NCBI GenBank assembly: GCA_034189385.1
Contig: JAXHVD010000014.1
Location: 60,050 to 124,049 of the forward strand
Source of the DNA: Thermodesulfobacteriota bacterium
Lineage (GTDB): Bacteria; Desulfobacterota; Desulfobacteria; Desulfobacterales; C00003060
Length of the DNA stretch: 64,000 bases
Direction: 5' to 3'
The position numbers were made by a program, and so were the translations under genes. The notes beneath the pieces are model-generated. The model did no database searches and was not told where the DNA came from. It saw only the letters and a list, made by a program, of their open reading frames with translations. Below, one piece after another: positions 31,104-53,359 of this stretch (positions within the stretch are counted from its first letter, which is position 1; each line of letters begins with the position of its first letter).

Positions 31104-32969
31104 ATGCCGAACCAAAGCATGCCTGATGTCTCAAAGTATGGCTCTATTCATGATTTTTTAAAGGCCCAAGCCCAGCGAGCACCTAATGCTCTTGCCATTC
31201 TGGCTCCTGGGCGGAATCCCCTTACGTACAGCGAATTGTGCATTCAAACTGAAGGTACGGTGGAAATGCTAAATGCAATGGGGGTTGGCCGTAATGACCG
31301 CGTAGCCATTGTTCTTCCTAACGGCCCCGAGTTAGCCGCTGCCTTTCTGGCAGTGGCCTCTGGGGGAACCAGCGCCCCGCTGAATCCCGCCTATGGCGCT
31401 AAGGAATTTGATTTCTATCTTGGCGATTTAGATGCCAAGGCATTGGTTATTCAATCTGGCATGGACTCGCCAGCGATCAGCGTGGCACGAACACGCGGGA
31501 CCCCCATCATCGAACTGTCACCTGTGGTTGAGGCAGGGGCAGGGAGTTTCACGCTCGTGGGCGCTGAACGATCGGCAGCGGCCAATGGCGGCATTGCACA
31601 GCTGGAGGATGTGGCTCTGGTGCTGCACACCTCAGGCACGACATCGCGACCCAAGGTCGTCCCCCTGACCCAGAGGAATCTTTGCACCTCGGCCCACAAC
31701 ATTCGGAGCGCTTTTGAGTTGGGTGATAGCGATCGCTGTCTCAATGTGATGCCCCTATTTCACATTCATGGCCTCGTGGGAGCCATCCTTTCGACGCTGG
31801 CGGCTGGCGGGAACGTCGTTTGCACTCCAGGCTTTGACGGGTCCGAATTCTTCAACTGGGTGGCAGGGTTTCACCCAACTTGGTACACGGCAGTGCCTAC
31901 CATGCACCAGGCGATCCTGAACGGTGCTTCATCCCATCACAACGTCATCGCCCGTTATCCGCTGCGATTCATACGTTCCTGTTCTGCCCCTTTGCCGCCA
32001 AAGACAATGGCAGCGTTGGAAGGCCTGTTCAATGCCCCTGTGCTTGAGTCGTACGGGATGACCGAGGCTGCCCACCAAATGACCAGCAATCCCTTGCCTC
32101 CCCGTAAGCGTAAACCTGGTTCCATAGGGATACCCACCGGACAAGAGGTGGCCATCATGAATGAAACAGGCGACCTTCTAAAGACAGGCGAGACCGGTGA
32201 GATCGTGATCCGAGGTGCGAACGTCACACAGGGCTATGAAAACAATCCGGAAGCCAACAAAAGCGCTTTTTGCAACGGTTGGTTCAGAACCGGGGATGAA
32301 GGCTTTTTTGACGAAGACGGCTACTTGTTCTTGACAGGCCGTATCAAGGAAATGATCAATCGTGGCGGCGAAAAAGTAGCGCCGAGAGAAATTGATGAGG
32401 CGGTCATGGAGCATCCTGCTGTGGAACAAGCTGTGACCTTTGCCGTCGCCCATGCCACCCTTTGGGAAGATGTTGCCACAGCCGTGGTGTTGGGAGCAAA
32501 GGCTTCGGCAACGGAGAAGGAGATCCGTGAGTGGGCCTTTGCACGACTGGCTGATTACAAAGTGCCAAGCCAGGTGGTCATAGTAGATGAGGTGCCGAAA
32601 GGCCCTACCGGGAAGCTTCAACGCATCGGTTTGGCAGAGAAGTTCATGTCAAAGCTCAAGTCACCATTCGTGGCACCCAGGAATCCGGCGGAGAAGGCCG
32701 TGGCCAGGATCTGGGCCGCGGTCCTGGATATGGAGCAGGTAGGGATTTACGACAACTTCTTCGGACTGGGTGGAGACTCGCTCCTTGCCACCCAGGTGGT
32801 TTCTCGGTTGCGGGCAGCTTTTCGTGTGGAGCTGCCCTTGCCAACGATGTTTAGGGGGCCCACTGTGGCCGACCAGGCGTCATTGATTGAAGAGCTGCTC
32901 ATGAGTGAGGTGGAAGGGCTGACAGAAGAGGAAGCGCGACAGTTTCTTGAGCAGCGACACGGCTTTTGA
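31104..32969 (+). CDS. Oxalate-CoA-ligase-like (AAE3/PCS60-type) adenylation domain fused to a PCP; NRPS loading module
   Basis: LHTSGTTSRPK, PLFHIHGL, FIRSCSAPL, YGMTEAAHQMTSNPLPP, PKGPTGKLQR; C-terminal DNFFGLGGDSLLA carrier. Confidence 0.85.
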   Translation: MPNQSMPDVSKYGSIHDFLKAQAQRAPNALAILAPGRNPLTYSELCIQTEGTVEMLNAMGVGRNDRVAIVLPNGPELAAAFLAVASGGTSAPLNPAYGAKEFDFYLGDLDAKALVIQSGMDSPAISVARTRGTPIIELSPVVEAGAGSFTLVGAERSAAANGGIAQLEDVALVLHTSGTTSRPKVVPLTQRNLCTSAHNIRSAFELGDSDRCLNVMPLFHIHGLVGAILSTLAAGGNVVCTPGFDGSEFFNWVAGFHPTWYTAVPTMHQAILNGASSHHNVIARYPLRFIRSCSAPLPPKTMAALEGLFNAPVLESYGMTEAAHQMTSNPLPPRKRKPGSIGIPTGQEVAIMNETGDLLKTGETGEIVIRGANVTQGYENNPEANKSAFCNGWFRTGDEGFFDEDGYLFLTGRIKEMINRGGEKVAPREIDEAVMEHPAVEQAVTFAVAHATLWEDVATAVVLGAKASATEKEIREWAFARLADYKVPSQVVIVDEVPKGPTGKLQRIGLAEKFMSKLKSPFVAPRNPAEKAVARIWAAVLDMEQVGIYDNFFGLGGDSLLATQVVSRLRAAFRVELPLPTMFRGPTVADQASLIEELLMSEVEGLTEEEARQFLEQRHGF

Positions 32970-32981
32970 TGGGCTGGAAGC

Positions 32982-35900
32982 GTGACTCAAAAAGAGGACA
33001 TGGGGCAACGGCGGTCCAGGCTCTCACCGGCCAAGGGAGCGCTGCTTGAGAAACGGCTGCAACAGGCGCTGACGGCCGATTTTGAATCGAAAGTAATCCC
33101 TAAGCGTCCAGAGCCAGAAGACGTACCTCTGTCTTTCGCTCAGGAACGCTTTTGGTTCCTTCATCAGCTGGAGCCTGGCAACCCTGCTTACAACCGTCCT
33201 TTTGCCCTTCGTCTCACGGGCCCGCTCAACGTGACCGCCTTGGAGCAGACCCTTAGTGAAATCTTGCGCCGGCACGAGACACTGCGGGCAACTTTCTCCT
33301 CCATGGACGGACGACCGGTCCAGGCCATTTCCCCCGCCCGACCCGTGACTCTTGCGGTGACAGATCTGAGCAGGCAACCTGATCCGGAACGAGAAGCGCA
33401 GGCCAGGCAGTTGGCGGCTGTGGAAGCCCAGCGATCCTTTGATCTGGTCCAAGGGCCTTTGGTTCGGGCCACCTTGCTACGTCTAGACAACGAGGAGCAC
33501 CTGCTACTGCTGGTGATACACCATATTGCCTTTGATGGCTGGTCCGCCAAAGTGCTCATCCGTGAGCTCACGGCGATCTATGAAGCTTTTTCCAAGGGGA
33601 GCCCGTCGCCGCTGGCTGAACTGCCTATCCAGTGCGCAGATTTTGCACTCTGGCAGCGACAGTGGCTGCAGGGTGATGTCTTCAAGATACAGCTCTCCTA
33701 TTGGCAAGACCAACTGGCAGGTTCCCCACCCTCACTGGATCTCCCCGCGGATTACCCACGGCCGGCGACACAGACGCATCGGGGGAGACGTGAAGCCGTG
33801 ACGTTGCCTGTCTCTTTGTTGAGATCACTAAAAACCCTAAGCCAGCAGGAGGGCGTCACCCTGTTCATGGTATTGCTGGCAGCCTTCCAGGTCCTGCTGC
33901 ATCGGTATACGGGAAAGGATGACATCGTCGTGGGCTGTCCTATTTCAGGCCGCACCCACGTGGAGACAGAAAAAGTGATCGGGTTTTTGGTCAATACCTT
34001 GGTCCTTCGGACTGACCTGTCTGGCAACCCGACTTTTCGGGAACTATTGAGTCGGGTCCGTGAGGTGGCAATGGGCGCCTACGCCCACCAGGATCTGCCC
34101 TTCGAGAAACTCATAGAGGAGTTGAAATTGGACCGGGACCTCAGCAGAACACCGTTATTTCAGGTCATGTTCAACTTGGAGAATGTTCCTGGAGAGGTAG
34201 TGCTAACACAAGACCTGACCTTAGATGAATTCGAATTTGACAGTCGCGTCTCACAGTTCGATTTGACCTTGGAAGTAGTGGAGAAGACCGACGGGCTGTC
34301 CTGTTTGTGGGTGTACAACAGCGACTTATTTGATGAGACCACTGTTAAGCGAATGTCAGGACATTTTAGGACTTTGTTAGAAGGCATTGTGGCCAATCCA
34401 GGACAGCGCATCGGATTGTTGCCACTTCTAACGGAATCTGAACGACATCAGTTTCTGGTGGAGTGGAATGACAATCGAGTCCACTATCCCGAGGATCAGT
34501 GCGTCCATCAGCTTTTTGAGTCTCAGGCGAAACGAACGCCCGACGCCGTTGCGGCGGTCTTTAAGGACCAGCAGATGACTTACGACGAGCTGAACCGTCG
34601 GGCAAATTGCCTGGCACACTACCTGCGCAAGCTTGGGGTGGGGCCGGACATCTTGGTAGGAGTTTGTGTGGAGCGCTCCTTGGAGATGGTAGTGGGGCTG
34701 CTGGGCGTTCTCAAGGCCGGGGGTGCTTATGTCCCTCTGGATCCGGCCTATCCTGAAAAGCGCTTGGCCTTCATGGTGGAAGAGACAGAGGCGCCGGCGT
34801 TATTGAGCCAAAAGCACCTGGCAAAAAGGTTTAGCGATACCGGGGTAAAAGTCGTGTGTCTGGACAGAGATTGGGATGTAATCTCCCGAGAACCAGAAGA
34901 GAATCCTCTTTCTGAAACAGGGCCCCGCAATTTACTCTATCTGATTTACACTTCGGGTTCCACGGGAAAACCGAAAGGGGTGGAAATCGAACATAGGGGG
35001 GTAGTCAGTCTTATCTCGTGGCAGCAACGAACATTCTCTGTGTCTGAGGCAGACCGAGCGACCCAGCTTGGAGCACTTTCTTTTGATATGACCGTCATGG
35101 AGCTGTGGCCTTATCTGACTGCGGGAGCAACCGTGCATTTCCCGCCGGATAACGAAACGCGCACGTCGCCCTTGCAACTCCGTGATTGGTTGGTCTCAGA
35201 GGCAATTACCATCAGCGACCTGGTGACCCCATTGGCGGAATGGGTTCTGCCGCTGAGCTGGCCCAAAGGTTCCGCACTTCGGACCCTTGTGACTGGGGGC
35301 GACAAACTCAGTTCTTATCCTTCAGACGACTTGCCTTTTGAGTTTGTGAACACCTACGGCCCTGCAGAGTACACGGTACTCACGACATGGGCTACTATTG
35401 AACCAAATCAGCGAGCCCACTCAGCGCCACCTATCGGCCGACCCATCGATAATACGCAGGTGTACCTGCTCGACAAATACTTACAGCCTGTTCCCATCGG
35501 CGTACCTGGTGAGCTGTACGTTGGCGGTGTGGGCCTGGCCCGAGGCTATCTCAAGCGCCCGGAGCTGACGGCCGAGAAGTTCATACCCCATCCATTCAGC
35601 CATGCCCCCGGTGCGCGTCTTTACAAAACTGGCGACCTGGCCCGTTATTTGCCCGATGGGGCCATTGAGTTCCTCGGCAGGATGGACAGCCAGGTCAAGA
35701 TTCGTGGCTGCCGTGTGGAACTGGGAGAGATTGAGACAATACTAGGGCAACATCCAGCTGTGAACAAAGCCGTGGTCTTGGCCACAGAGAGGGGAAGCAA
35801 ACACGGCCGCCTTCCGATTTCACCGGCAACAGACAAGATCCTGGCAGCCTATGTGGTACTGCACAAGGGCCACTCTGTGTCCACTAGTGGACTGCGCCGG

Positions 35901-36398
35901 TTTCTGAAAGAGAGACTGCCGGAGTATATGGCCCCTTCAGCGTTTGTGGAACTGGAAGCCTTTCCCCTGACGCCTAACGGCAAGGTAGACCGAAGTTCCC
36001 TTCCCTGTCCAGACGCAACGCGACCTGACTTGGATGGGGCTTTCATCGCCCCCCGCACTGCCGTGGAGGAATTGGTGGCAGGGGTGTGGACAGAAGTGCT
36101 CAGGTTGGACCAGGTGGGGGTTCATGACAGCTTTTTTCAGTTGGGAGGCCACTCGTTGCTGGCCGTCCAGGTCATTTCTCGGCTCCGGAAGGCGTTTCAA
36201 ACAGATGTCCCTTTGCGTTGCCTCTTTGAGGCCCCCACTGTAGCAGAGCTCTCCCGGGCCATCTTGGCGAATGAACCCGTGCCCGGACAGGCTGAAAAGA
36301 TCGCCCGGATCATGAGTAAGGTAAAGCGTATGTCCCCGGACGAAGTCAAGAGGACTCTTGAGGAGAAGAAAGGGCAGCGAACCGGGGAGAGGCCATGA
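32982..36398 (+). CDS. Single-module NRPS 1 (C-A-PCP)
   Basis: [48 protein letters not shown]. Confidence 0.95.
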
Positions 36399-36468: not shown

Positions 36469-36693
36469 ATGCACAGGGACGACAGGGAGGACACCACCGT
36501 CTACAAGGTTGTCGTAAATCACGAAGAACAGTATTCCATATGGCCTGTAAACCGCGAAACCCCTCGCGGCTGGCATGAAGTGGGAAAAAGCGGGCCGAAG
36601 GCAGAATGTCTCGCATTCATCAAAGAAGTCTGGACTGACATGACACCCCTTAGCCTGAGGAAAAAGATGAAGCAGGAAGGGAAGTCCCAGTAA
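36469..36693 (+). CDS. mbtH: MbtH-like protein
   Basis: [42 protein letters not shown] before the ATG at 36469. Confidence 0.95.
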
Positions 36694-36729
36694 CCATCTT
36701 CAGATTTCTATTAAGGGAAACATCTTCCA

Positions 36730-39700
36730 ATGTCTGTGGAGAAAACCATACAAGAAAGGATTGATGAGTTTGTTGCCGAATCACGTGCGCTAAATGGGCA
36801 AGAGGTAAGAGAAAGGATGCCCTGGAACACCTCTGTAACGGCTGATGCCATCAGGCACTTTGCCTATGGTATCAGCGACGATAACCCCCTGTGGCTGGAC
36901 CGGCACTACGCATCCAAGACCTGCTATGGCCGCCTGGTCGCGCCGCCGGCTTTCCTCAGCTCCGTCCTGTACCCAATCCTACATGGGGCCCCAATGGATG
37001 TGCCTTTATCCAGCTTTATCGAGGGAATAGAATATCAATGGTTTTTGCCTGTTCTGGAAGGAGATTCGTTACGGGCATCGGCCAGGCAGATTGACGTCTT
37101 AGAATCGAAGGCCGCCAATGGCCGCCCCGTTGTCTATATTGTATCTGAGACCGGCTATTGGAACCAACAGGGTGAGCTGGTTGCAAAGGCAAGGGGAACA
37201 ATGGCCCGAGTTTTACGGGATGGGAAAGAACTCTCGGTTCAGCCTCCAATACATCAGTATAACCAGGAAGAGATACAAAGCATTGGCAAGGCCCTTGCAC
37301 GAGAGGGCAGGACCGGGGGCCGCAATCTGTTCGGTGAGGATGTTGAGGTCGGCCAGGAACTACCAGCGCTGGTGCGGGGCCCCCTAACCATCGGGGATAT
37401 GATCTGTTGGCAGGCTGCCGTTGGTCCCTCCTATCGGGCCGGATCTCTGGGTTATCGGGACATCGTGAAGGCACCCCACACGGCCGTTACAAATCCTATT
37501 ACCGGTTGGCCGGTTAGGTTTTCTCAACAGCATGAGGACTTTCAACTGGTGTCACAGCGCGGAATGTCCGCTCCCTTTGATAATGGTGTGATGCGTTTTT
37601 CCTGGTTGTCTCCTTTAGTAACAAACTGGATGGGTGATAATGGATTGCTGAAACGACTGGCTGTTCGGATAATAGCACCAAACCTATACGGGGATACTAC
37701 TTGGTATCAAGGAATAGTAACAAAGAAAAATGATACAAAGTCCGGTACTTCACTAACAGTCAAGATAACGGGAATCAACCAGGTGGGCATCACCACAACC
37801 CGAGGGGAGGCAGAAGTATTACTCCCATTGTGCAGGGCAAACAAGCGTGGCCATTCCCCACAAGAAATGAGCGAAAGGGATGATATCCTACAAGGCGATC
37901 CCGGGCAAAACTGCCTGCATGAGATGTTCGAGATTCAGGCCGAGCGGACACCCGATGCTGACGCAGTCTCCTTTGAAGACCAGCGGCTGAACTATCGCGA
38001 ATTGAACCAACTGAGTAACCGGCTGGCACACTATCTACGTTCTTCGGGTGTAGGTCCCGATGTGCCTGTGGGGATATATATGGAACGCTCCATCGATATC
38101 GTACTAGGAATACTGGCCACTCTGAAGGCAGGGGGGGCTTACGTGCCCTTAGATCCCGAATATCCAAAGGAACGATTGTCCTTTATGGCCGAAGATGCTG
38201 GGATTTCGGTACTTTTAACCCAAGAGCGGCTGCTCCATAGGCTACCCAACCAGGAGGCACGGGTAATCTGCTTAGACACAGGACGGAACACATACAGGCA
38301 TATGAGCGGAGAAACCCCCGTTACAAGTGTGAGGGACAATAATCTCGCCTATGTGATCTATACTTCCGGTTCTACTGGCCAACCAAGAGGCGTGGCCGTA
38401 TCCCATTCCAGTTTATCATTGTACATCAATTCCATCAGCAAGGCCTTAGGGGTAACTGATAAGGATGTATATTTACACACCGCATCTTTTTCTTTTTCCG
38501 CTGCCGTGCGACAGATGGTCTTACCCCTTTGTTTGGGTTCCACCCTGGTCGTTGCAAACTCCGAGGAAAGAAGAGATCCTCTCGCCCTATTTGAACTAGT
38601 CAAAAAGCGTAGTGTAACCGTATGGGATACTGTACCAAGCCTGTGGCGTCATTGCATTGATGCGCTGATGACTCTTGACCACGACGTCAGGGCAAACCTT
38701 CTCAGAAACAGGTTGCGCCTCATCCTGGTGACCGGTGAGCCACTAACCTGGGATATCCCTCGGACGTGGATGTCTCGATTGCATCATGGTGCGCACATCA
38801 TGAACCTGTATGGCCAAACAGAATCTACTGGGACTGTTAGTTATTATCCCATTCCCAAGGAGTTTGATGACAAATCGCGGGTAGTACCATTGGGAAGGCC
38901 AGTTGAAAGGACGCAGATCTACTTATTAGACGAAGACCTGCGCCAGGTTCCCAATGGGGTGGAAGGCGAAATCTGTGTCGGAGGCGGACGCTTGGCTAAA
39001 GGATACCTGCATGGAGACGGATTGATGACCGATCGATTCATCCCCGACCCGTTTAGTGGAAAGCCCGGTGCACGTCTTTATAAAACCCTCGACTTGGGGC
39101 GATATTTACCCGACGGCAATCTCGAGTTCATGGGTCGTCTGGATCAGCGAATCAAGATCCGCGGGTTCCGTATCGAACCGACGGAGATTGAAGAAACACT
39201 GAGAAAACACCCGGACGTACGCGACGCCGCCGTGTTAGCACGAGAGGACCTTCCAGGTGACAAAAGATTGATTGCCTACATAGTGCCTAATCAAGCCGGC
39301 ACGATAATGATTGAGGGTAACAGGCCATATAGGTTTTCAAATAACATGGCCGTGATGCAATTAAACAAACATGAGACCGACTACACCTATGGGGCAATAT
39401 TCGAGCGTCTCACCTATATGAGACATGGGATTACGATTCATGATGGTGATTGCATATTTGACGTGGGGGCAAACATAGGTCTCTTTTCGCTCTTTGTCCA
39501 TCAGTGGTGCAAAAAGCCAAGGATCTTCGCCTTTGAGCCCAATCCCGTCGTATTCGAGCTATTAAAGGCAAATGCGTCTTTGTATGGCCTGGACGTACGA
39601 TTGTTCCAATGTGGATTGTCTGATCAATCCAAGCGCGCACCCTTTACCTTTTTCCCTGGTTCTTCCATACAATCCGGCTTATATGCTGATGGGGAGAGCG

Positions 39701-41600: not shown

Positions 41601-41864
41601 ATGAAGGAGAACAGAGAGAAAATCAGGGCGTTTTTGGCCAGATACATTTCAACCCACGATTTACGAGATGATGATGACATCTTTGCAAGCGGTTTTGTCA
41701 ATTCACTGTTTGCCATGCAATTGGTCTTGTTTGTAGAAGGGGAGTTTCATCTCCGAATCGAAAACGAGGATCTGAAGATTAAGAACTTCAGATCGATCAA
41801 TGCTCTTAGCCGTTTGATAGAACGGAAAGTGTTGCAGTTAAACAGTGCGCACTTCCCGGGTTGA
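41601..41864 (+). CDS. Stand-alone ACP of the FkbJ/ZmaD type
   Basis: DIFASGFVNSLFAMQLVLFVE..F motif typical of hydroxy/methoxy/aminomalonyl-ACP carriers. Confidence 0.88.
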   Translation: MKENREKIRAFLARYISTHDLRDDDDIFASGFVNSLFAMQLVLFVEGEFHLRIENEDLKIKNFRSINALSRLIERKVLQLNSAHFPG

Positions 41865-43053: not shown

Positions 43054-44166
43054 GTGAAATGTATCGCCCCCTTGGCAATGACCTCAATGACCATCTCGAC
43101 AAACAGGAAATTGGCTGACAAGGATCATAGAAAGCAATCCGTCAAGTGCGTCGTCTGGGATCTCGATGACACGATATGGAAGGGCGTATTGCTGGAGAAT
43201 GACCACCTTTGCCTGCGGGAAAACGTGATCTCCATCATCAAGGCTCTGGATAACCGCGGTATCCTGCAATCCATTGCCAGCAAGAACGATGGTGCTGCCG
43301 CGATGAAAAAGCTCAGCGAGTACGGTCTGAACGAGTATTTTCTCCATCCCCAGATTGGCTGGAACTCCAAAGCCTCATCCATTCAGCACATTGCTCGGTC
43401 ACTCAACATTGGTACGGATGCAATGGCCTTCATTGATGACCAGCCTTTTGAAAGAGAAGAAGTGAGGTTTTCGCTACCTGAAGTTCTCTGTGTGGATGCA
43501 AAAGACTTGCATAGACTGCTCGATATGCCGGAAATGAACCCTGGCCTTGTTACCGAAGATTCGAAAATGAGAAGGTCGATGTACCTTAGCGACGTGTCAC
43601 GGCTAAGATCTGAACAGGAGTTTGAGGGTTCCAAAGAGGCTTTTCTAGCGTCACTCCGCATGGTCCTCACTATCTTTGCGGCAAGAGAAGAGGATTTGCT
43701 GCGAGCAGAAGAATTGACGGTGCGCACCAATCAACTGAATGCAACAGGCTTCACCTATTCCTATGAGGAGCTGGATCACTTCCGGCAATCGAAAGGGCAC
43801 ATCCTGCTCATGGCAAAGCTGGAAGATAAGTACGGTAGTTATGGAAACATCGGCTTGGCACTCGTCCAATGTGAGGCAAGGGTATGGACCATAAAACTCC
43901 TGTTGGTATCGTGCCGGGTCATGTCCAGAGGAATCGGCTCCATTATCCTTAGCCACATCATGATGATGGCCAGAAACCATAACGTGCGTTTGCGCGCTGA
44001 ATACGTGGAGAATGGTCGAAACCGCATGATGAATATCACCTATCGCTTTGCAGGGTTTTATGAAATTGAGCGGAAGGGCAAGGTCACTCTTTTTGAAAAT
44101 GACCTGACGGCAATTCAACCCTTTCCCGATTATGTAGGAGTGGAAATCCATGACCAATCCGTCTGA
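43054..44166 (+). CDS. FkbH-like glyceryl-ACP phosphatase/transferase (HAD-IIIC)
   Basis: VWDLDDTIW, QSIASKN, FIDDQPFER, RTNQLN, SCRVMSRG. Confidence 0.92.
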   Translation: MKCIAPLAMTSMTISTNRKLADKDHRKQSVKCVVWDLDDTIWKGVLLENDHLCLRENVISIIKALDNRGILQSIASKNDGAAAMKKLSEYGLNEYFLHPQIGWNSKASSIQHIARSLNIGTDAMAFIDDQPFEREEVRFSLPEVLCVDAKDLHRLLDMPEMNPGLVTEDSKMRRSMYLSDVSRLRSEQEFEGSKEAFLASLRMVLTIFAAREEDLLRAEELTVRTNQLNATGFTYSYEELDHFRQSKGHILLMAKLEDKYGSYGNIGLALVQCEARVWTIKLLLVSCRVMSRGIGSIILSHIMMMARNHNVRLRAEYVENGRNRMMNITYRFAGFYEIERKGKVTLFENDLTAIQPFPDYVGVEIHDQSV

Positions 44167-47100: not shown

Positions 47101-47551
47101 GGTGCCTTCAGCCTTTGTCCTGCTCCATTCCCTCCCCTTGACGCCTAACGGCAAGGTGGACCGTAGCGCCCTGCCGCTGCCAGAGCCGACCCGGCCTGAC
47201 TTGAATGAGGCCTTCATAGCGCCCCGCACTGCCGTGGAGGAATTGGTGGCAGGGGTGTGGAGCGAAGTGCTCAGGTTGGATCGGGTGGGCGTGCAGGACA
47301 ACTTTTTTGAATTGGGCGGACACTCTTTGCTGGCGGTCCAGGTCCTTTCCAGGCTCCGGAGGGTTTTTCAGGCGGATCTCCCTTTGCGCTGCCTGTTCGA
47401 AGCGCCGACCGTGGCGGAGCTATCGCACGTCATCATGGCCAACGAGCCAATGCCGGGACAGACCGAAAAGATCGCCCGGGCCATGGGCAAGATAAAGAAG
47501 ATGTCCTCTGAGGACATGAGCAAAACGCTTGAGGAAATAAGACGCCAGTGA
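44150..47551 (+). CDS. Single-module NRPS 2 (C-A-PCP), paralog of NRPS 1
   Basis: [42 protein letters not shown]. Confidence 0.95.
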   Translation: MTNPSEGVSDPSLKSEALLEALLKAAATGRSRKITRRNVAGPAPLSFAQQRLWFLDQVVPGNPAYNVVRAFRLTGQIDPKVLERVLSEILRRHESLRTTFTAVEGRPVQMAQPVPGPGHSQRQPMPLFSRVIDLSRLPEPERGDKIHDLLTKESRRTFDLTQGPLMGMTLLRLGEEEHVLLLVMHHIVSDGWSVGVLLRELAALYEAFSTGASSPLPPLPIQYADFALWQRQWLQGEVLEDQLAYWKKQLAGAPFRLELPADRPRPSVQTYGGARQSAFLSKELTEGLRELGQREGVTLFMTLLAAFKTLLYRYSGQEDITVGSPIANRNRVEIESLIGFFVNTLALRTDLTGNPSFQGLVHRVRKVALEAYAHQDLPFEKLVEELQPERNLSHSPLFQVMFVLHNQPMPTLEFSNMRLNPMEVDNGTAKFDLTLFVLQRKEGLQCTWEYNTHLFDHATVGRMLGHFHTLLEGIVADPGQPIGLLPLLTEAEGHQLLVEWNDTRAEYPQDQLVHHLFEAQAERRPDAVAMVFREEQMTYGELNCRANRLAHYLRKLGVGPKVLVGVCLERSLEMVVGLLAVLKAGGAYVPLDPSYPEKRLAFMLEETEAPVLLSKAYLTGKFPRNGAKVVCLDRDWDVIAREPGEVLFVDTGPSNLAYVIFTSGSTGKPKGVEVEHRGLVNLVSWLQWTFSVSEKDQTAHLASLSFDVSVMELWSYLTAGARISLPPDEERRTSPLGLRDWLLSEEISVSVLVTPLAELVLPLSWPETAPLRVLMTAGDKLSSYPSKTLPFQFVNAYGPTEYTVLTTWAAVGPNQGSYSPPPIGRPIANTQVYLLDKYLQPVPVGVPGELYVGGVGLARGYLKRPELTAEKFIPNPFGNDPGSRLYRTGDLARYLPDGNIEFLGRMDSQVKIRGFRVEPGEIETILGQHPAVKKVVVLARQRAPNRTTPAADKHLVAYVVPHRDNSLAIDELRRFLKERLPDYMVPSAFVLLHSLPLTPNGKVDRSALPLPEPTRPDLNEAFIAPRTAVEELVAGVWSEVLRLDRVGVQDNFFELGGHSLLAVQVLSRLRRVFQADLPLRCLFEAPTVAELSHVIMANEPMPGQTEKIARAMGKIKKMSSEDMSKTLEEIRRQ

Positions 47552-47561
47552 GGTATGGGGA

Positions 47562-50500
47562 ATGGACAAATGCCATGAGGGCGCCGACCCCTCTTCAGAG
47601 GAACTAGAGCTTCTCAGATACCTGTTGGAAGAAGAGGGCATTAAACCCCAACGGACGGCGACCATCCCGCGAAGGGGCAGTGTTGAAGAGGTGCCAATGT
47701 CCTTTGCCCAGCAGCGCCTGTGGCTCTTAGACCAGTTAGAGCCTGAGAGCGCGGCCTACAACATTGCGGCAGCTTTTAGCCTCACCGGTTTACTCCATGT
47801 GGCCGCACTGGAGCATGCCCTCAATGCATTGATTAGGCGCCACGAGTCCTTGCGAACGACCTTCACTGAGGTGGCGGGAAAACCGCAGCAGATCATTTCA
47901 CCCACTCTTTCCCTTGAGCTTCCAGTGATAGAACTTCGAGAACTGTCAGAGGCAGAGCGAAATAGGGCGGTCCGGCGGTTGTCGGCTGAGGAGGCCCGGC
48001 GGCTCTTCGACCTGAGCCAAGGGCCACTCCTAAGAGCCACCTTGCTGCGGATGACTGAACAGGAATACGTGCTGCTCTTAACATTGCATCATATTGTTGC
48101 TGACGAGTGGTCCATGGAGGTGCTCTTTCGTGAACTCGCAGTGCTCTACAAAGCCTTGTCTGTGGACAGACCATCTCCCCTTAATGCGTTGCCTATTCAA
48201 TACGCCGACTTTGCCGTGTGGCAGCGACAGTGGCTCCAGGGTGAGGAACTAGATGCCCAGCTTTCCTACTGGAAAGACAGGCTCGCTGATGCTCTCCCTT
48301 CGCTGAATTTGCCAACGGACCGCCCTCGACCAGCCATGCAGACGTTTCGCGGCAGTCGTGAGTCTCGGCCTTTGCTCTCCGCGGCTCAGCTGCAGGCGCT
48401 AAAGGCGTTGAGCGTTGAGGAAGATGCGACTCTGTTTATGACATTGCTTGCAGCCTTCAACGTCCTGTTGCATCGGTACACCGGTCAAGAGGACATTGCT
48501 GTAGGCTCTCCCATTGCAAACCGGAACCGGATTGAACTTGAAGGGCTCATCGGTTTTTTCCTCAATACCCTGGTCCTTCGCACGGACCTCTCCGACGATC
48601 CCACCTTTCGCGAACTCCTGGCCCGGGTGCGCGAGACGGCCTTGGAGGCCTATGCCCATCAGGACGTGCCCTTCGAGAGACTGGTGGAGAAACTGCAGCC
48701 GGAACGGGACCTGAGCCGCACACCCTTGTTTCAGGTCATGTTTGTCCTCCGGGACGGCCGCAGACAGACCCTGGAGCTTTCGGGCGTAACAGTCACTCCC
48801 ATGGAGGTGGATACGGGTACTTCAAAGTTTGATCTCATACTCTTTGTGGCAGAGGGAGAAGACGGGCTCCGAGGGACGGTAGAATACAACACCGACCTCT
48901 TCCACAAAACGACCATCGCCCGAATGTTGGGACACTACGAGCGCCTGTTAGAGGCCATCGTTTCCGACCCGGACCAACGGGTGGGGGCCTTGCCCCTTCT
49001 CACAGCACCTGAGCGGCATCAGCTGCTGGTGGAGTGGAATAATACCCGAACAGAATATCCTGGGAAGCAATGGGTCCACCAGCTCTTTGAGTCCCAGGTG
49101 GAACGGACGCCCGACGCGGTTGCCGTCGTCTTTGGGGACCAGCAGATAACTTACGATGAGCTGAACCGTCGGGCGAATCGACTGGCCTGGTATCTGCGCA
49201 GGCTCGGGGTGGGACCCGATGTCTTGGTGGGGATCTGCCTAGAGCGTTCCTTAGACATGGTGGCGGCATTGCTGGCCGTCCTCAAGGCAGGGGGGGGCTA
49301 TGTGCCGCTGGATCCGTCTTACCCCAGGGAGCGCTTGGCGTTCATGTTGGAGGATGCCCCCATGACGGCCCTGTTCACTCAGACGGGACTCCTTGAAACC
49401 CTGCCGAAGCACGGAGCAAAGACGGTCTGTCTCGACTCCGGCTTGGAAGACCTGACCCGTGAAGGAGAAACAAATCCGGTGAACGAAGGTTCCACGGAGA
49501 GTCTGGCCTATGTCCTGTATACGTCGGGGTCTACCGGACTACCCAAAGGGGTGGCCATGACCCACCGCTCCCTCTCCAACTTGATTTGCTGGCAGGTCCA
49601 AAACTCTGCCCTTCCCGAAGGAGCCAGGACCCTGCAATTTGCCCCTTTAAGCTTTGATGTCTCCTTTCAGGAGATCTTTTCCACCCTCTGTTCCGGAGGG
49701 GCCCTGGTTCTCATCTCAGAGGAGTCCAGGCGGGATCCCATGGAGCTGTTGGGTTGTGTCACGGCCAAATCCATTGAAAGGCTCTTTCTCCCCTTTGTGG
49801 CCCTGCAGCAGTTGGTAGAAGGAGCTGACGGCCGCGGGACCGTCCCCGCCGGCCTTCGTGAAATCATCACTGCCGGCGAACCCTTGCAGATCACGAGGCA
49901 GGTGGCCTCTTTTTTCAGCCGCCTAACAGGCTGTGCCCTCTATAACCAGTACGGGCCGACAGAGAGTCATGTTGTCACCGCTTTTGCCCTGAAAGGCCCA
50001 CCCGGTGACTGGCCCCTCTTTCCGCCCATGGGTCGGCCCATTGCCAACACCCAGATCTATCTCCTGGACAAAGATCTGCAGCCTGTTCCCCCGGGCGTGC
50101 CCGGTGAGCTTTATATAGCCGGTGTGGGCCTGGCCCGCGGGTATCTTCACCGCCCCGAACTGACGGCCACCGCCTTCATCCCCAACCCCTTCGGCAATGA
50201 CCCCGGCAGTCGTCTTTACAATACCGGAGACCTGGCCCGGTATCTGCCAGACGGAAACATGGAGTTCCTGGGAAGAATAGACAGCCAGGTCAAGATCCGC
50301 GGCTTCCGTGTGGAGCTGGGGGAAATCGAGGCAGCCCTCAGAGAGCACCCGGACCTCCGAGACGCCGTTGTAGTGGCAAGACAGGACGGGTCCGCAGACA
50401 GGTATCTTGCAGCGTACGTTGTCCCGGTTGAGATCCTTGCGCCTACCATCAGTGGATTGCGGAGCTTCTTGCAGGAGAGATTGCCTGACTACATGATCCC

Positions 50501-51623
50501 TTCGGCCTGGGTTATGCTGGAAAGGCTCCCCTTGACCCCGAGCGGCAAGGTAAACCGCCTGACCCTTCCTGCCCCTGTCTGGAAAGGCCCGGAAATGGAG
50601 GATCCCTTTGTGGCGCCGAAAGATCCTCTAGAACTCCAACTGACCCAACTCTTCGAAGATCTCCTGGGGGTTCAGGGCATCGGCGTCAAGAGCGACTTTT
50701 TTGAGTTGGGAGGACATTCATTGTTAGCTGTCCGCATGTTTACTCAAATCGAGAAGGCCTTTGGCAAGCGATTGCCTCTCGCCACTCTGTTCCAGGCGCC
50801 TACGGTTGAACGGTTAGCGGAAATTCTCCGCCAGCAGGGATGGTCAGCACCCTGGTCGCCGCTTGTGCCAATTCAGCCCGGTGGTTTCAAACAGCCTTTC
50901 TTCTGCGTCCACGGGCTTGGCGGAAATGTCGTCGGCTACGCTGCTTTGGCTCGATGCGTTGGTCCAGAGCAACCATTTTATGGGCTGCAAGCCCACGGGT
51001 TGAGACCAGGGCGAGCACCGCACACGCGGGTTGAGGACATGGCCGCCTATTACCTGGCAAAAGGGGTACAGACCATGCAACCTGAAGGGCCGTACCTTTT
51101 AGGAGGTGCATGTCTTGGAGGGATGGTGGCCTTGGAGATGGCTCACCAGCTTCAAGCGCAAGGCCATGAGGTGGCCCTGCTTGCCCTCATAGATCCCGAT
51201 CCCCATCTGAGTTCCTTGTATTGGCGGCGTGACTTCACTCTCCTGATTGAGGATGTGAAGCGCGGGCGACTATCCCGTGCGACAAATACGTTGGTGAGGA
51301 AGATTAGGAAAAAAATAACGCAGAGGAAGGGCCCTTTGCAGCAGGCCGGGCAGCTTGAACGCGTTGACGCTGCGCACAGGAGGGCTCGACACAGTTACAT
51401 CCCTCAGGTCTATTCGGGTAAGATTACTTTCTTTTGGTGTGATGAGGAGTCAGGAATACTATCTTTTAGCAACCACCGGGTCAGTTGGCGCAATCTGGCC
51501 AGGGGAGGGCTGGAGGAGCATAGGCTTCCTGGCCCACATATGACAATGTTGCGTGAACCTTATGTGCAAGTCTTGGGCCAAAAATTAAAGATGTGTCTGG
51601 ATGAGGCGCAGAAGCATGATTGA
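47562..51623 (+). CDS. Terminal NRPS module (C-A-PCP-TE)
   Basis: HHIVADEWS, YTSGSTGLPKG, YNQYGPTESHVV, LGGHSL, TE PFFCVHGLGG..GGACLGG..GPHMTML. Confidence 0.95.
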   Translation: MDKCHEGADPSSEELELLRYLLEEEGIKPQRTATIPRRGSVEEVPMSFAQQRLWLLDQLEPESAAYNIAAAFSLTGLLHVAALEHALNALIRRHESLRTTFTEVAGKPQQIISPTLSLELPVIELRELSEAERNRAVRRLSAEEARRLFDLSQGPLLRATLLRMTEQEYVLLLTLHHIVADEWSMEVLFRELAVLYKALSVDRPSPLNALPIQYADFAVWQRQWLQGEELDAQLSYWKDRLADALPSLNLPTDRPRPAMQTFRGSRESRPLLSAAQLQALKALSVEEDATLFMTLLAAFNVLLHRYTGQEDIAVGSPIANRNRIELEGLIGFFLNTLVLRTDLSDDPTFRELLARVRETALEAYAHQDVPFERLVEKLQPERDLSRTPLFQVMFVLRDGRRQTLELSGVTVTPMEVDTGTSKFDLILFVAEGEDGLRGTVEYNTDLFHKTTIARMLGHYERLLEAIVSDPDQRVGALPLLTAPERHQLLVEWNNTRTEYPGKQWVHQLFESQVERTPDAVAVVFGDQQITYDELNRRANRLAWYLRRLGVGPDVLVGICLERSLDMVAALLAVLKAGGGYVPLDPSYPRERLAFMLEDAPMTALFTQTGLLETLPKHGAKTVCLDSGLEDLTREGETNPVNEGSTESLAYVLYTSGSTGLPKGVAMTHRSLSNLICWQVQNSALPEGARTLQFAPLSFDVSFQEIFSTLCSGGALVLISEESRRDPMELLGCVTAKSIERLFLPFVALQQLVEGADGRGTVPAGLREIITAGEPLQITRQVASFFSRLTGCALYNQYGPTESHVVTAFALKGPPGDWPLFPPMGRPIANTQIYLLDKDLQPVPPGVPGELYIAGVGLARGYLHRPELTATAFIPNPFGNDPGSRLYNTGDLARYLPDGNMEFLGRIDSQVKIRGFRVELGEIEAALREHPDLRDAVVVARQDGSADRYLAAYVVPVEILAPTISGLRSFLQERLPDYMIPSAWVMLERLPLTPSGKVNRLTLPAPVWKGPEMEDPFVAPKDPLELQLTQLFEDLLGVQGIGVKSDFFELGGHSLLAVRMFTQIEKAFGKRLPLATLFQAPTVERLAEILRQQGWSAPWSPLVPIQPGGFKQPFFCVHGLGGNVVGYAALARCVGPEQPFYGLQAHGLRPGRAPHTRVEDMAAYYLAKGVQTMQPEGPYLLGGACLGGMVALEMAHQLQAQGHEVALLALIDPDPHLSSLYWRRDFTLLIEDVKRGRLSRATNTLVRKIRKKITQRKGPLQQAGQLERVDAAHRRARHSYIPQVYSGKITFFWCDEESGILSFSNHRVSWRNLARGGLEEHRLPGPHMTMLREPYVQVLGQKLKMCLDEAQKHD

Positions 51624-52389
51624 GCACCTTTCGCGCACTAAAGACTCCTTGTCTTCATGGTCTCCTCCGCCAGCAAGTCCTACGTTAGCCAAAGACGAGG
51701 TTCACCTGTGGCGGGCGTATTTGGACGTAGCTGTGCAACTGCTAGAAAGCCTGAAGCATTGCTTGTCTCGGGACGAACTGACAAGAGCGGAGCGTTTTCA
51801 TTTTGAGAAAGACCGAAATCGTTTCATTGCAGCCCGTGGGGTCCTTAGGAAGATTCTGTCTGCCTATTGCATGACGGAACCGAATCAACTTTCTTTTCAT
51901 CACAACATGCATGGGAAGCCTGCTTTAGACCCGCAATGTGACGGGGGTGGTCTTCGCTTCAATTTATCTCATTCTGATGGGGTCGCTCTCTACGCCATTA
52001 CACGTGGCCGTGAGGTCGGTATCGATATCGAACGCATTCGCACGGATTTGGAGTTTGATCGGATCGCAGAACGTTTTTTTTCGCCCCAAGAGGTTGCCAC
52101 ACTGCTCGCACTCCCACCGCATACTCAGAAACAAGCATTCTTCGCCTGCTGGACCCGGAAAGAGGCTTACGTAAAAGCAAGAGGCGACGGGCTTTCTCTG
52201 CCTCTGGATCAATTTGCCGTATCGGTGGCGCCTGATGACGCAGCGGTGCTGCTGCACACAAAGGGTGATCCTCAGAATCTGTCCCATTGGTCTTTGAAAG
52301 CCTTGGCCCTAGGCCCTGATTATGAGGCGGCGCTTGCCGTGGAGGGAGATTCCGGGCTACTTAGATGCTGGCAATGGGCGGAGGAATAG
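51616..52389 (+). CDS. Sfp-type 4'-phosphopantetheinyl transferase
   Basis: GKP, FNLSHS, VGIDIE, FFACWTRKEAYVKA.G. Confidence 0.95.
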   Translation: MIEHLSRTKDSLSSWSPPPASPTLAKDEVHLWRAYLDVAVQLLESLKHCLSRDELTRAERFHFEKDRNRFIAARGVLRKILSAYCMTEPNQLSFHHNMHGKPALDPQCDGGGLRFNLSHSDGVALYAITRGREVGIDIERIRTDLEFDRIAERFFSPQEVATLLALPPHTQKQAFFACWTRKEAYVKARGDGLSLPLDQFAVSVAPDDAAVLLHTKGDPQNLSHWSLKALALGPDYEAALAVEGDSGLLRCWQWAEE

Positions 52390-52525
52390 AATAAAGTTTA
52401 CATGTGCTGCGGCTAGACTTCTTTTAGCACTCCTTGAGCCTCATTGGACACGGGTTGGTCGCTTTTTGAATTTGGTTCAGCTGACATAGACCATCACACA
52501 ATATCGGAGCTCGACCTGGAACACC

Positions 52526-53359
52526 ATGAAATATCAGAATGTTATCATCAACGTGTGCCTCACGGGAATTGTCCCCACTAAGGACGTGAATCCCTATGTG
52601 CCGATCACGCCTAAAGAGATCGCTCAAGACGCAAGAAAGGTCTACGATCTAGGGGCAAGCATGGTCCACATACATGCAAGAGACAAAAACGGGCAGCCAT
52701 CGAGCAAAAAGGAGATATACAAAGAGATCATTGACAGGATTCGAGATAAATGTGCAGACCTTGTTATCGTCGTTTCCACGAGCGGCCGAAGGACGCGGGA
52801 CATTAAACAACGAATGAATGTTCTGGAGCTCGATGGATACCACAAGCCGGATATGGCAAGCCTCACCTTGGGCTCTATGAACTTTAAACATGATACGGGT
52901 ATCAATTCTCCGGAAACGATCCTTTCACTTCTGACAACCATGAACTCATCAGGTATAAGGCCTGAACTGGAGATATTTGATACTGGAATGGCAAATTATG
53001 CTAAATACCTTTTTGAAAAGGGCCATCTTGAAGGAAGGCACTATTCGAATCTAATCCTTGGATCTTTAGGGACAATGCCTGCTACGCCCAAAAATCTTTC
53101 CCATCTTGTGGAGGAGCTTCATGAGAATCTAATCTGGGCTGCAACGGGTGTTGGGCGGTTTGCATTTTATGTACAATGTCTATCCCTAGCCATGGGGGGA
53201 CATATCAGAGTCGGAATAGAGGATAGTATATTCATGGATGAAGAAAAAAGACAGGTAGCTACCAATGAAAAGCTGGTCTCGCGCATTGTAAGGGTAGCTG
53301 AAGCCATGGGTCGGCGATTGGGCACTCCAAGGGACGTGAGAAAAATGTTACACTTATAA
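52526..53359 (+). CDS. BKACE / DUF849 beta-keto acid cleavage family enzyme
   Basis: VHIHAR metal motif, PDMASL..GSMNF, PELEIFD, HIRVGIED. Confidence 0.9.
   Translation: MKYQNVIINVCLTGIVPTKDVNPYVPITPKEIAQDARKVYDLGASMVHIHARDKNGQPSSKKEIYKEIIDRIRDKCADLVIVVSTSGRRTRDIKQRMNVLELDGYHKPDMASLTLGSMNFKHDTGINSPETILSLLTTMNSSGIRPELEIFDTGMANYAKYLFEKGHLEGRHYSNLILGSLGTMPATPKNLSHLVEELHENLIWAATGVGRFAFYVQCLSLAMGGHIRVGIEDSIFMDEEKRQVATNEKLVSRIVRVAEAMGRRLGTPRDVRKMLHL

What the first reader, a model, noticed from the sequence alone, without database searches (positions are those of the whole stretch)
31104..53359. Unusual NRPS cluster: three small-acid loading systems and three single-module NRPSs, with no PKS
Seen: eleven co-oriented, mostly tightly spaced genes. 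Three C-less carrier-loading systems (oxalate-CoA-ligase-like/PCP, dehydratase-A(MT)-PCP, and FkbH/I/J/K with ACP) are interleaved with three C-A-PCP proteins, MbtH, an Sfp PPTase and a BKACE. No KS/AT, epimerisation domain, exporter or regulator lies in the cluster. Inference: a non-linear assembly line in which C domains amidate short polar acyl units (oxalyl, glyceryl/hydroxymalonyl, a methylated or dehydrated acid) onto unusual amino acids. The product would be small and highly oxygenated, possibly a chelator or enzyme inhibitor. I do not recognise this architecture from any characterised cluster, and the host appears to be an anaerobic deltaproteobacterium. Best candidate for an undescribed system in this window.
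Basis: partly seen in the sequence, partly recalled or inferred. Interest (0 to 1): 0.92.

Follow-up and report, generated by a model that had tools for sequence, protein, structure and literature searches.

The report
Diacid-primed peptide assembly line without PKS
An uncultured marine sulfate-reducing bacterium carries an intact 12-gene peptide assembly line that most likely caps a short proline-ended peptide with small diacids, using among others a widespread but apparently undescribed starter module (a hydratase fused to an acid-activating domain and a carrier).

Summary
There is no KS/AT, epimerase, exporter or regulator in it, and no modular PKS in the genome. g1 keeps the oxalate-contacting residues of plant oxalyl-CoA synthetase. 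g4 (double hot-dog hydratase + adenylation domain with inserted O-methyltransferase + carrier) belongs to a family spread over several phyla, whose A domains all share a non-amino-acid pocket (S-A-R-D in 120 of 120). Its stand-alone hydratase relatives sit among di/tricarboxylate catabolic genes. Best reading: oxalyl-Xaa-Xaa-Pro made collinearly, with a hydrated, O-methylated diacid and hydroxymalonyl as alternative or side-chain caps. How those two units enter is unresolved. The whole architecture occurs only in this lineage (a 96-97% sister carries two extra genes); it looks like an island assembled from mobile cassettes. A glycan-decorating role is a serious rival. MIBiG was not searchable. 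New variant of a known kind.

The parts
31104..32969 (+). g1: oxalate-CoA-ligase-type adenylation enzyme fused to a PCP (oxalyl loader); acidic C-terminal docking-type tail
   Evidence: Pfam A + PCP; best PDB hits are oxalate-CoA ligases 5IE0 (E 2.9e-128) and 6QJZ; pocket I-H, C-S, G-M, H, K against AtAAE3 V215-H216, C288-S289, A313-M314, H319, K500; GGDSL carrier motif; tail
32982..36398 (+). g2: C-A-PCP; A pocket DMMDVGTVL(K), McyB1-like scaffold, substrate unknown (acidic residue at 278 hints at an amine side chain); basic LSP..ALL..RL head
   Evidence: HHIAFDG and GGHSL intact; the link from code to substrate is recalled, not tested
36469..36693 (+). g3: MbtH-like protein, 74 aa; a sister copy has a 3,583-bp two-gene insert right after its stop codon
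   Evidence: PF03621; start and RBS; insert
36730..40659 (+). g4: double hot-dog (MaoC-type) hydratase/dehydratase (aa ~20-366) + A domain with pocket SARDLTLGT(K), interrupted between A8 and A9 by an FkbM-family O-methyltransferase (DVGANIG) + PCP
40694..41593 (+). g5: FkbK-like 3-hydroxyacyl-ACP/CoA dehydrogenase
   Evidence: 3HCDH_N + 3HCDH; GAGVIG and GMHF motifs
41601..41864 (+). g6: stand-alone ACP with VNSL serine motif (FkbJ-type; motif recalled)
   Evidence: PF00550, NF005480 below cut-off, motif
41904..43046 (+). g7: FkbI-like acyl-ACP/CoA dehydrogenase
   Evidence: four Acyl-CoA_dh Pfams; IIEGT motif
43054..44166 (+). g8: FkbH glyceryl-ACP loader; overlaps g9 by 17 bp
   Evidence: TIGR01686 258.9 bits over cut-off 146.65; WDLDDT and VSCRV
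44150..47551 (+). g9: C-A-PCP, paralogue of g2 (A domains 74% identical) with a different, hydrophobic pocket DVMVMAAVL(K) and the same C-terminal tail as g2
47562..51623 (+). g10: C-A-PCP-TE; A pocket DVQFIAQVV(K), Pro or a Pro-like imino acid; TE with Cys1184-Asp1211-His1326
   Evidence: pocket region best matches the first modules of tyrocidine synthetase 2 and gramicidin S synthetase 2 (their Pro specificity is recalled); TE
51601..52389 (+). g11: Sfp/HetI-type phosphopantetheinyl transferase
52526..53359 (+). g12: BKACE/DUF849 enzyme of an STSGR subfamily; metal ligands intact; candidate oxalate/oxalyl-CoA source from oxaloacetate (inferred)
   Evidence: linked to g11 also in an independent run (record 14)

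Best explanation
A PKS-free NRPS island that makes a short, polar N-diacyl peptide (or a small family of them) ending in Pro or a Pro analogue. Step 1 (inferred, ~85%): g1 adenylates oxalate and loads it on its own PCP. Step 2 (inferred, ~45%): oxalate or oxalyl-CoA comes from oxaloacetate + acetyl-CoA through the BKACE g12, in the manner of ObcA. Step 3 (inferred, ~60%): g2's C domain takes the oxalyl group, and the chain runs g2 to g9 to g10, giving oxalyl-Xaa1-Xaa2-Pro, released by the Cys thioesterase. Step 4 (inferred; ~75% that g4 loads a di/tricarboxylic acid, ~50% for this exact order): g4 adenylates an alpha,beta-unsaturated diacid such as fumarate, its hot-dog domain adds water at the beta carbon of the carrier-bound thioester, and the inserted methyltransferase caps that hydroxyl, giving for example a beta-methoxysuccinyl unit. 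Step 5 (from established pathway chemistry, ~85%): g8, g6, g5 and g7 make hydroxymalonyl-ACP from 1,3-bisphosphoglycerate. Step 6 (weakest, ~35%): with no KS, the g4 and ACP units are used as amide caps, either as alternative starters at a C domain or on a side-chain amine of Xaa1, by a re-used C domain or the Cys-TE. Shown here: domain content, intact motifs, pockets, family distribution. No activity is shown.
For: Oxalate: all three substrate-contacting residues of AtAAE3 (S289, H319, K500, named in PMC8905533 passages) are kept in g1 and S/H are kept in 117 of 120 listed homologues. A same-order genome has an ICL/PEPM-family lyase + this A-PCP + an oxalyl-CoA-decarboxylase-like ThDP enzyme + C-A-PCP-TE in a row. 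That lyase has no tblastn hit at E<1e-6 in this genome (genome 90% complete), leaving BKACE as the visible candidate. g12 is distantly related to ObcA/Obc1 (E 3e-6), which turn oxaloacetate + acetyl-CoA into oxalate (PMC5028181 passages), and it has Arg in the loop after S82-T83. Order: g1's acidic tail and g2's basic head are the same pair seen between loader and C-A-PCP-TE in L029 and L030; g2 and g9 share a tail; g9 and g10 have similar heads (read by eye). g4 as a starter: DH-A-PCP is fused to C-A-PCP(-TE) in L014 and P0028 and lies directly before C-A-PCP-TE in L029, L030 and L126. g4 substrate: Asp235 is replaced by Ser, with Arg at 239, in 120 of 120 listed homologues. Stand-alone hydratase relatives have, on the same strand within 3 kb, a class III CoA-transferase (26 of 131 loci), succinyl-CoA-ligase-like beta and alpha subunits (21 and 18), TctA/B (12) or a TcuA-like flavoprotein (5). 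A more distant relative is fused to MmgE/PrpD. The model is a MaoC double hot-dog (pLDDT 88; Foldseek 5I7N, 4V12, MeaC 8HGN, Ich 8KHG). The MT motif fits the DVGx(N/H)xG motif of KtzH-type M domains that methylate the Ser/Thr hydroxyl (PMC8341866 passages), the same beta position that a hydratase would hydroxylate (inference). MT-bearing homologues L022 and L024 have no FkbH cassette within 10 kb, so the MT serves its own module. dN/dS against the sister copy is 0.34 (g2) and 0.26 (part of g4).
Against: One starter plus three amino-acid modules uses all three C domains, so two of three loaders have no dedicated entry point. g4 lacks the acidic docking tail. No locus outside this lineage joins these cassettes: of 29 loci with the fused g4 homologue, 0 hold FkbH, 0 hold BKACE, 9 hold an oxalate-ligase-like gene (about five independent lineages, and the pocket is altered in L039, L046, L063 and the second copy in L089) and 10 hold a C domain. 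Many DH-A-PCP genes stand alone with no NRPS near. g12 has Phe where canonical BKACEs and ObcA have a catalytic Tyr, as in the non-canonical BsfD (bioRxiv 10.64898/2026.01.15.699783 passages), and its subfamily usually sits beside GNATs and glycosyltransferases. The fold matches are at 10-18% identity and do not single out diacid hydratases; enoyl-CoA hydratase 2 scores alike. In many Nitrospinota-type loci the stand-alone hydratase sits among housekeeping genes, which says nothing on substrate. g4 has Leu for the Gly of the A7 motif (Gly in 96% of 119 homologues; Leu shared with P0002), which could impair it. dN/dS for the short g1 piece is 0.68 on 11 differences. The g2 and g9 pockets match no code I can assign.
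Confidence: 0.5

Rival explanations
1. Two parallel lines converge on one terminal module: g1 to g2 gives oxalyl-Xaa1, while the FkbH/ACP or g4 unit goes to g9 and gives acyl-Xaa2; each is handed to g10, so the products are two or three N-acyl-Xaa-Pro dipeptides rather than one tripeptide.
For: g2 and g9 are duplicates (72% DNA over 2.9 kb; A domains 74%) with the same C-terminal tail, so both could dock on g10. g9 is translationally coupled to FkbH (-17 bp). This gives two of the three loaders their own C domain.
Against: g9's head resembles g10's head, not the loader-accepting head of g2, which favours g2 to g9. It still leaves one loader without a C domain.
Confidence: 0.2
2. The product is not a free metabolite but an acyl-peptide decoration that the Cys thioesterase transfers to a cell-surface glycan or another cell-bound acceptor.
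For: No exporter in the cluster. In three same-genus genomes, NRPS genes lie beside flippase, GT2, sugar transferase or DegT genes, two of them with MbtH fused to an A domain of the related SSRD/TSRD pocket. g4 homologues L030 and L133 lie in glycan loci. The BKACE subfamily is fused to or next to GNATs and glycosyltransferases.
Against: No glycosyltransferase, flippase or GNAT was found among the window ORFs scanned from 23.8 to 62.8 kb. The cluster sits next to lpxC/ntrYX, not in a polysaccharide locus. The island runs off the contig end, so its far part is unseen.
Confidence: 0.15
3. A mosaic in flux: only the oxalyl-tripeptide line works, and the g4 module, the hydroxymalonyl cassette or BKACE are passengers left from other clusters (for example a lost PKS).
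For: Two-gene indel against a 96-97% identical sister. g4 has no docking tail and an odd A7 motif. No AT/KS to use hydroxymalonyl-ACP. GC differs among genes (g12 45%, g4 50%, g9/g10 57%). The combination is not seen elsewhere.
Against: All 12 frames and catalytic motifs are intact. g4 is full length and 95% identical in another strain and under purifying selection (0.26). A 79%-identical DH-A(MT)-PCP exists in another Thermodesulfobacteriota MAG. An independent run has depth in all 30 bins from 33.6 to 53.5 kb, with long pieces about 96-98% alike.
Confidence: 0.15

Closest known systems
Oxalyl-CoA synthetases AtAAE3 / LsOCS / yeast Pcs60 (PDB 5IE0, 6QJZ, 8AFF)
   Same: Best structural-sequence hits of g1; oxalate-contacting Ser, His and Lys kept
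   Different: g1 is fused to a PCP and feeds an NRPS; the known enzymes make oxalyl-CoA for catabolism or beta-ODAP
Hydroxymalonyl-/methoxymalonyl-ACP cassettes (FkbGHIJK of FK520, ZmaN/D/G/E of zwittermicin; recalled)
   Same: FkbH, ACP, NAD- and FAD-dependent dehydrogenases, all intact
   Different: No AT/KS in the cluster or modular PKS in the genome; no stand-alone FkbG. Padanamide's methoxyacetyl cap from such a cassette is a recalled, untested precedent and belongs to a hybrid cluster
Interrupted adenylation domains of family 2a, A8-M(O)-A9 (KtzH, ColG)
   Same: O-methyltransferase between A8 and A9 with DVGxNxG
   Different: The A domain lacks Asp235 and is not Ser/Thr-type; it is preceded by a hot-dog hydratase. 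The words MaoC, dehydratase and FkbM do not occur in the main text of the 2020 survey (supplements not read)
MaoC-type acyl-CoA hydratases (MSMEG_6754 4V12, mesaconyl-CoA hydratase MeaC 8HGN, itaconyl-CoA hydratase Ich 8KHG)
   Same: Double hot-dog fold, TM 0.52-0.64
   Different: 10-18% identity; own invariant motif QQHED; fused to an A-PCP and so predicted to act on a carrier, not CoA
Cys-thioesterase NRPSs (ObiF, SulM, AB3403)
   Same: Cys nucleophile; C-A-PCP-TE layout as in AB3403
   Different: Asp follows beta-6 as in AB3403; no Gln-Cys-Asn motif; terminal residue Pro-like, so no beta-lactam or beta-lactone closure expected
BKACE/DUF849 enzymes (Kce 2Y7D, ObcA 4NNA, flavophos BsfD)
   Same: Metal-binding His-x-His and Glu, Arg226 equivalent
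   Different: No Glu14 equivalent of Kce (residue role recalled); STSGR loop; Phe for Tyr145 as in BsfD; only weakly similar to ObcA

Membership tests
Modular NRPS | C, A and PCP domains with intact motifs, a release domain and a PPTase | tested here: met
   g10's C motif is HHIVADE (Glu for Gly)
Modular NRPS | Peptide product formed | not testable with these tools
   no biochemistry; no RNA holder listed
Oxalate-CoA ligase (AAE3) type, g1 | Ser289, His319, Lys500 pocket | tested here: met
   (6 of 8 pocket residues identical; V to I, A to G)
Oxalate-CoA ligase (AAE3) type, g1 | Transfers oxalyl to CoA as a free-standing enzyme | tested here: not met
   fused PCP with GGDSL; works like, is not, a CoA ligase
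Hydroxymalonyl-ACP extender cassette | FkbH + ACP + two dehydrogenases | tested here: met
Hydroxymalonyl-ACP extender cassette | A PKS module (AT/KS) that uses the unit | tested here: not met
   the genome is 90% complete and the contig ends at window 64000
Methoxymalonyl-ACP cassette | Dedicated O-methyltransferase acting on the ACP unit | tested here: inconclusive
   the only MT is inside g4; MT-bearing homologues L022 and L024 lack an FkbH cassette nearby, so it probably serves g4
Interrupted A domain family 2a (KtzH) | M domain between A8 and A9 with DVGx(N/H)xG | tested here: met
Interrupted A domain family 2a (KtzH) | A domain activates L-Ser/L-Thr | tested here: not met
   pocket SARDLTLGT without Asp235; sequence test only
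MaoC (R)-specific enoyl-thioester hydratase, g4 N-terminus | Double hot-dog fold | tested here: met
MaoC (R)-specific enoyl-thioester hydratase, g4 N-terminus | Asp-x4-His catalytic dyad (recalled) | tested here: inconclusive
   N-half has H-x6-D-N-P-L-W; C-half has invariant H-E-D without the upstream Asp; which residues are catalytic was not resolved
beta-lactam/beta-lactone-forming TE (SulM, ObiF) | Cys nucleophile | tested here: met
   GACLG
beta-lactam/beta-lactone-forming TE (SulM, ObiF) | Asp at position II, Gln-Cys-Asn motif, DAP or beta-hydroxy terminal residue | tested here: not met
   LIDPD after beta-6, Ala-Cys-Leu, Pro-like last module
ObcA-type oxalate synthase, g12 | Close sequence relation and catalytic Tyr322 equivalent | tested here: not met
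   E 2.9e-6 only; Phe at that place; 'works like' remains open
Any MIBiG cluster | Same gene set with a known product | not testable with these tools
   no MIBiG or antiSMASH here; paper searches found none

The most novel reading that the evidence does not exclude
The hot-dog/A(SARD)/PCP protein is a new class of NRPS starter module, derived once from a catabolic dicarboxylyl-CoA hydratase, that activates an unsaturated diacid, hydrates it on the carrier and (here) O-methylates it. In this cluster three diacid units (oxalyl, methoxy-diacyl, tartronyl) are all placed as amides on one short peptide without any ketosynthase, the extra ones by a re-used C domain or by the cysteine thioesterase acting as an acyl transferase.
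Probability: 0.25. Interest if true: 0.82.

Novelty: new variant of a known kind. Interest (0 to 1): 0.62.

Why it matters
Natural products of anaerobic sulfate reducers are little known (own knowledge), and this is the genome's only NRPS. Beyond the single cluster, g4 defines a testable family: at least 120 fused proteins, with loci in at least seven phyla, share one invariant non-amino-acid pocket coupled to a MaoC-type hydratase, a pairing I could not find described. One adenylation assay would name the substrate of the whole family and of the stand-alone hydratases (131 loci). The cluster also offers a clean test of whether hydroxymalonyl-ACP can be used without a PKS and whether a BKACE can supply oxalate.

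Tried and rejected
Hidden PKS elsewhere in the genome: the two strong KS hits are stand-alone; rejected, within 90% completeness. Conserved whole cluster in relatives: 0 of 36 same-genus genomes by DNA, only short 63-86% patches from other NRPS or dehydrogenase genes. The g4 hydratase had only weak or distant matches (best 33%) in 60 relatives. In 401 phylum genomes including this one, 4 had a g1 match at E<=1e-110 (only 3 candidates scored per genome) and 3 an FkbH match at E<=1e-60; the fetched surroundings did not show this layout. Plasmids: no full hydratase-A fusion among the 15 of 3,171 records listed. Embedded MT as an FkbG for the ACP cassette: disfavoured. beta-lactone or beta-lactam TE: motifs not met. 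Assembly artefact at the MbtH-g4 junction: rejected. Promoter and terminator scans around g11-g12 were at chance level. No RNA holder listed; this is no evidence either way. Runs X3-X5 hold small shares and were not used for habitat. The first all-against-all clustering timed out and was rerun on 1,990 non-overlapping ORFs of 10,606. The tree is the quick tree, on 62 sequences (the window plus 61 of the 160 loci); the careful search did not finish. Paper searches found no description of the architecture, of a MaoC-A-PCP module or of an oxalate-primed bacterial NRPS; passages of PMC12141560, PMC11730586 and PMC5318452 were irrelevant, and PMC11961710 reports no BKACE on oxaloacetate in the passages seen. 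The library lacks most subscription papers, and I read no supplements. No complex prediction was sent: g2 and g9 share a tail and g9 and g10 a head type, so a pass would not separate the linear from the parallel model.
Full report
Observation. The region 31104-53359 holds 12 co-oriented genes with gaps of -23 to 136 bp. All carrier serines, C-domain HHxxxD motifs, the FkbH DxDxT and Cys, the acyl-CoA dehydrogenase Glu motif, the PPTase motifs and the BKACE metal ligands are present (the roles of these motifs are recalled). No KS, AT, epimerase-type second C domain, transporter or regulator family was hit. The genome (4.13 Mb, 90% complete) has only these three C domains; its two strong KS hits are stand-alone genes. 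It carries dsrA, and the DNA is held by marine and marine-sediment metagenome runs.

Setting. The cluster begins just upstream of lpxC. In 22 of 29 same-genus lpxC loci examined, the neighbour on that side is comM, whose counterpart in this genome lies near the end of contig C17; none of the 29 matched the cluster. The cluster is therefore the left part of an island that runs off the contig end. It was not found in 36 same-genus genomes. A metagenome contig (L089) is a 96-97% identical sister over g1-g4, with a 3,583-bp insert at the MbtH stop codon that encodes an FMN-reductase-family protein and a second acid-ligase-PCP with an altered pocket; the first has no hit in this genome. An independent run has depth in all 30 bins of 33.6-53.5 kb and links the PPTase end to the BKACE, while the probable source run confirms the window's junction. 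dN/dS against L089 is 0.34 for g2, 0.26 for the first 832 codons of g4 and 0.68 for a short piece of g1 with 11 differences.

g1, the oxalate loader. Its best solved relatives are plant and yeast oxalate-CoA ligases, far ahead of other acyl-CoA ligases. [quoted passage not shown] In a same-order genome this A-PCP follows an ICL/PEPM-family lyase and precedes an oxalyl-CoA-decarboxylase-like enzyme and a C-A-PCP-TE. The scan had already noted this cassette on other DNA. Here the lyase is missing from the cluster and had no hit in the genome. The BKACE could replace it, since ObcA/Obc1 make oxalate from oxaloacetate and acetyl-CoA (PMC5028181 passages; relation to BKACEs in bioRxiv 10.64898/2026.01.15.699783 passages). 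Against this, similarity to ObcA is weak, g12 has Phe at the Tyr that ObcA needs (111 of 120 homologues likewise), and the subfamily (STSGR in 88 and TTSGR in 16 of 120) mostly lies beside GNATs, F390-like ligases and glycosyltransferases (most neighbours judged by eye, five confirmed by profile).

g4, the new part. A search with its first 375 residues among proteins of 719-2291 aa gave 130 hits; all 120 listed have an A domain and 118 a carrier. Their pocket, mapped with alignments to solved A domains, is S-A-R-D-x-T-L-G-(T/S/M) in 120 of 120: the Asp that binds an alpha-amino group is lost and an Arg sits at 239, recalling the Lys239-Asp278 pair of Glu-activating domains (recalled). Layouts are DH-A-PCP (77), with TE (18, plus 9 with the DH moved to the C-terminus), with C or C-A-PCP (6), with the FkbM methyltransferase (9, two of them with TE) and one without a carrier. 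Scans of genomes and metagenomes gave 125 and 98 relatives, of which 80 + 80 loci were kept: 29 fused and 131 stand-alone, with some duplicates. On a quick tree of 62 sequences, 23 fused and 39 stand-alone fall on either side of one branch (SH-aLRT 97); named fused rows come from Acidobacteriota, Nitrospirota, Cyanobacteriota, Bacteroidota, Pseudomonadota, Planctomycetota and Thermodesulfobacteriota. The wider family has 468 clusters at E<=1e-30. The predicted fold is a MaoC double hot-dog (pLDDT 88, pTM 0.89), closest to mycobacterial MaoC dehydratases, then mesaconyl-, enoyl- and itaconyl-CoA hydratases, all at 10-18% identity. Stand-alone members have a class III CoA-transferase (26 of 131), succinyl-CoA-ligase-like subunits (21 and 18), a tricarboxylate transporter (12) or a TcuA-like flavoprotein (5) within 3 kb on the same strand; others sit among housekeeping genes. 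This points to a di/tricarboxylyl-thioester hydratase. Fused members act as starters: DH-A-PCP-C-A-PCP-TE is one polypeptide in L014, and DH-A-PCP precedes C-A-PCP-TE in L029, L030 and L126. The inserted methyltransferase has the motif of KtzH-type domains that methylate the Ser/Thr hydroxyl (PMC8341866 passages). Since a MaoC hydratase adds water at that same beta carbon, hydrate-then-methylate on an unsaturated diacid is the most economical reading; dehydration of malate or tartrate is the alternative. One caution: g4 and its 79% relative P0002 have Leu for the A7 Gly.

The three elongation modules. g2 and g9 are duplicates on a McyB1-like scaffold (McyB1 activates Leu, bioRxiv 10.1101/2023.11.13.566838 passages) with pockets DMMDVGTVL and DVMVMAAVL. 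I cannot assign either; the Asp at 278 of g2 resembles recalled Lys/Orn/Arg codes. g10's pocket region best matches the first modules of tyrocidine synthetase 2 and gramicidin S synthetase 2, differing at two of nine positions from the former, so Pro or an analogue. Its TE resembles AB3403 (Cys, Asp after beta-6), not the ring-forming SulM/ObiF type (PMC11298585 passages). Terminal sequences, read by eye, pair g1's acidic tail with g2's basic head, the pair also seen in L029 and L030; g2 and g9 share a tail; g9 and g10 share a head type; g4 has no such tail. That favours oxalyl-Xaa1-Xaa2-Pro and leaves the g4 unit and hydroxymalonyl-ACP without a dedicated C domain.

Mechanism and rivals. Best reading (0.5): a diacid-primed line, with the two extra units as alternative starters or side-chain caps. 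Rivals: parallel acyl-Xaa-Pro lines converging on g10 (0.2); a glycan-decorating product (0.15), because same-genus NRPS genes, two with a related SSRD/TSRD pocket, lie in polysaccharide loci, although none of those gene types was found around this cluster; a mosaic with passenger cassettes (0.15). Of 29 loci with fused g4 homologues, 9 hold an oxalate-ligase-like gene (against 0 of 131 stand-alone; about five independent lineages), 10 a C domain, and none FkbH or BKACE. Three of five genomes tested carry an oxalate-ligase-PCP elsewhere. So the parts travel, and sometimes together, but the full set is confined to this lineage.

What is known. Every domain belongs to a known family, and the logic is that of an NRPS with acyl loaders. 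Paper searches found no account of this architecture, of a MaoC-A-PCP module or of an oxalate-primed bacterial NRPS; the library omits most subscription journals, I read passages only and no supplements, and MIBiG could not be queried. The scan's own notes hold the oxalate cassette and FkbH cassettes without PKS, but nothing for the hydratase module by sequence or words or for this BKACE context. Verdict: new variant of a known kind, interest 0.62.

Noticed in passing
G000:C17:52784-61500 (outside the window): The comM/YifB gene is split by an element of about 8.7 kb with a serine-recombinase-like gene and phage-like genes (names by eye).
   Followed up: no
L089:4367-7949: Two-gene insert in the sister cluster: a 511-aa FMN-reductase-family protein and a second acid-ligase-PCP whose pocket has lost the oxalate His.
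   Followed up: partly
L179:8505-19806; L181:4451-7058; L183:11580-16874: Same-genus genomes carry NRPS genes inside polysaccharide loci, two with MbtH fused to an A domain of pocket SSRD/TSRD; L179 continues into a Cys/oxidase (thiazole-type) module.
   Followed up: partly
L259:17783-20000 and L260:1-6395; L114-L116: ICL/PEPM-family lyase + oxalate-ligase-PCP + oxalyl-CoA-decarboxylase-like ThDP enzyme with a docking-type head + NRPS; in L114-L116 the lyase seems a remnant (by eye).
   Followed up: partly
L188, L189, L190, L197; proteins P0278, P0287, P0328, P0339: The STSGR BKACE subfamily is fused to or next to GNAT acyltransferases and often lies in glycan loci: a possible undescribed acyl-CoA supply for glycan acylation.
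   Followed up: partly
L011, L019, L025, L067 and other stand-alone loci: A stand-alone double hot-dog hydratase with CoA-transferase III or a succinyl-CoA-ligase paralogue and Tct transporters: a likely undescribed di/tricarboxylate catabolic operon in NC10, Binatia, Nitrospinota and others.
   Followed up: partly
L133:7274-11068; L137; L146; L154: Permuted form A-PCP-TE-DH with the same pocket; L133 lies in a sugar-biosynthesis locus.
   Followed up: no
L262:16216-19618: FkbK-ACP-FkbI-FkbH cassette 54-59% identical to g5-g8 in another phylum member, with no NRPS or PKS hit to the window's domains in the 40 kb fetched.
   Followed up: no
window 54711-62816: Rest of the island: peroxiredoxin-like, transglutaminase-like, low-GC TPR-sulfotransferase (57526-59562), HigA antitoxin and a CNNM transporter; two ORFs (55606-56232, 59776-60549) have no Pfam hit.
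   Followed up: no
window 47163-48423: In an independent run the end of g9 and the C domain of g10 are locally diverged, while flanks are about 97% alike: possible recombination in the docking/C region.
   Followed up: no
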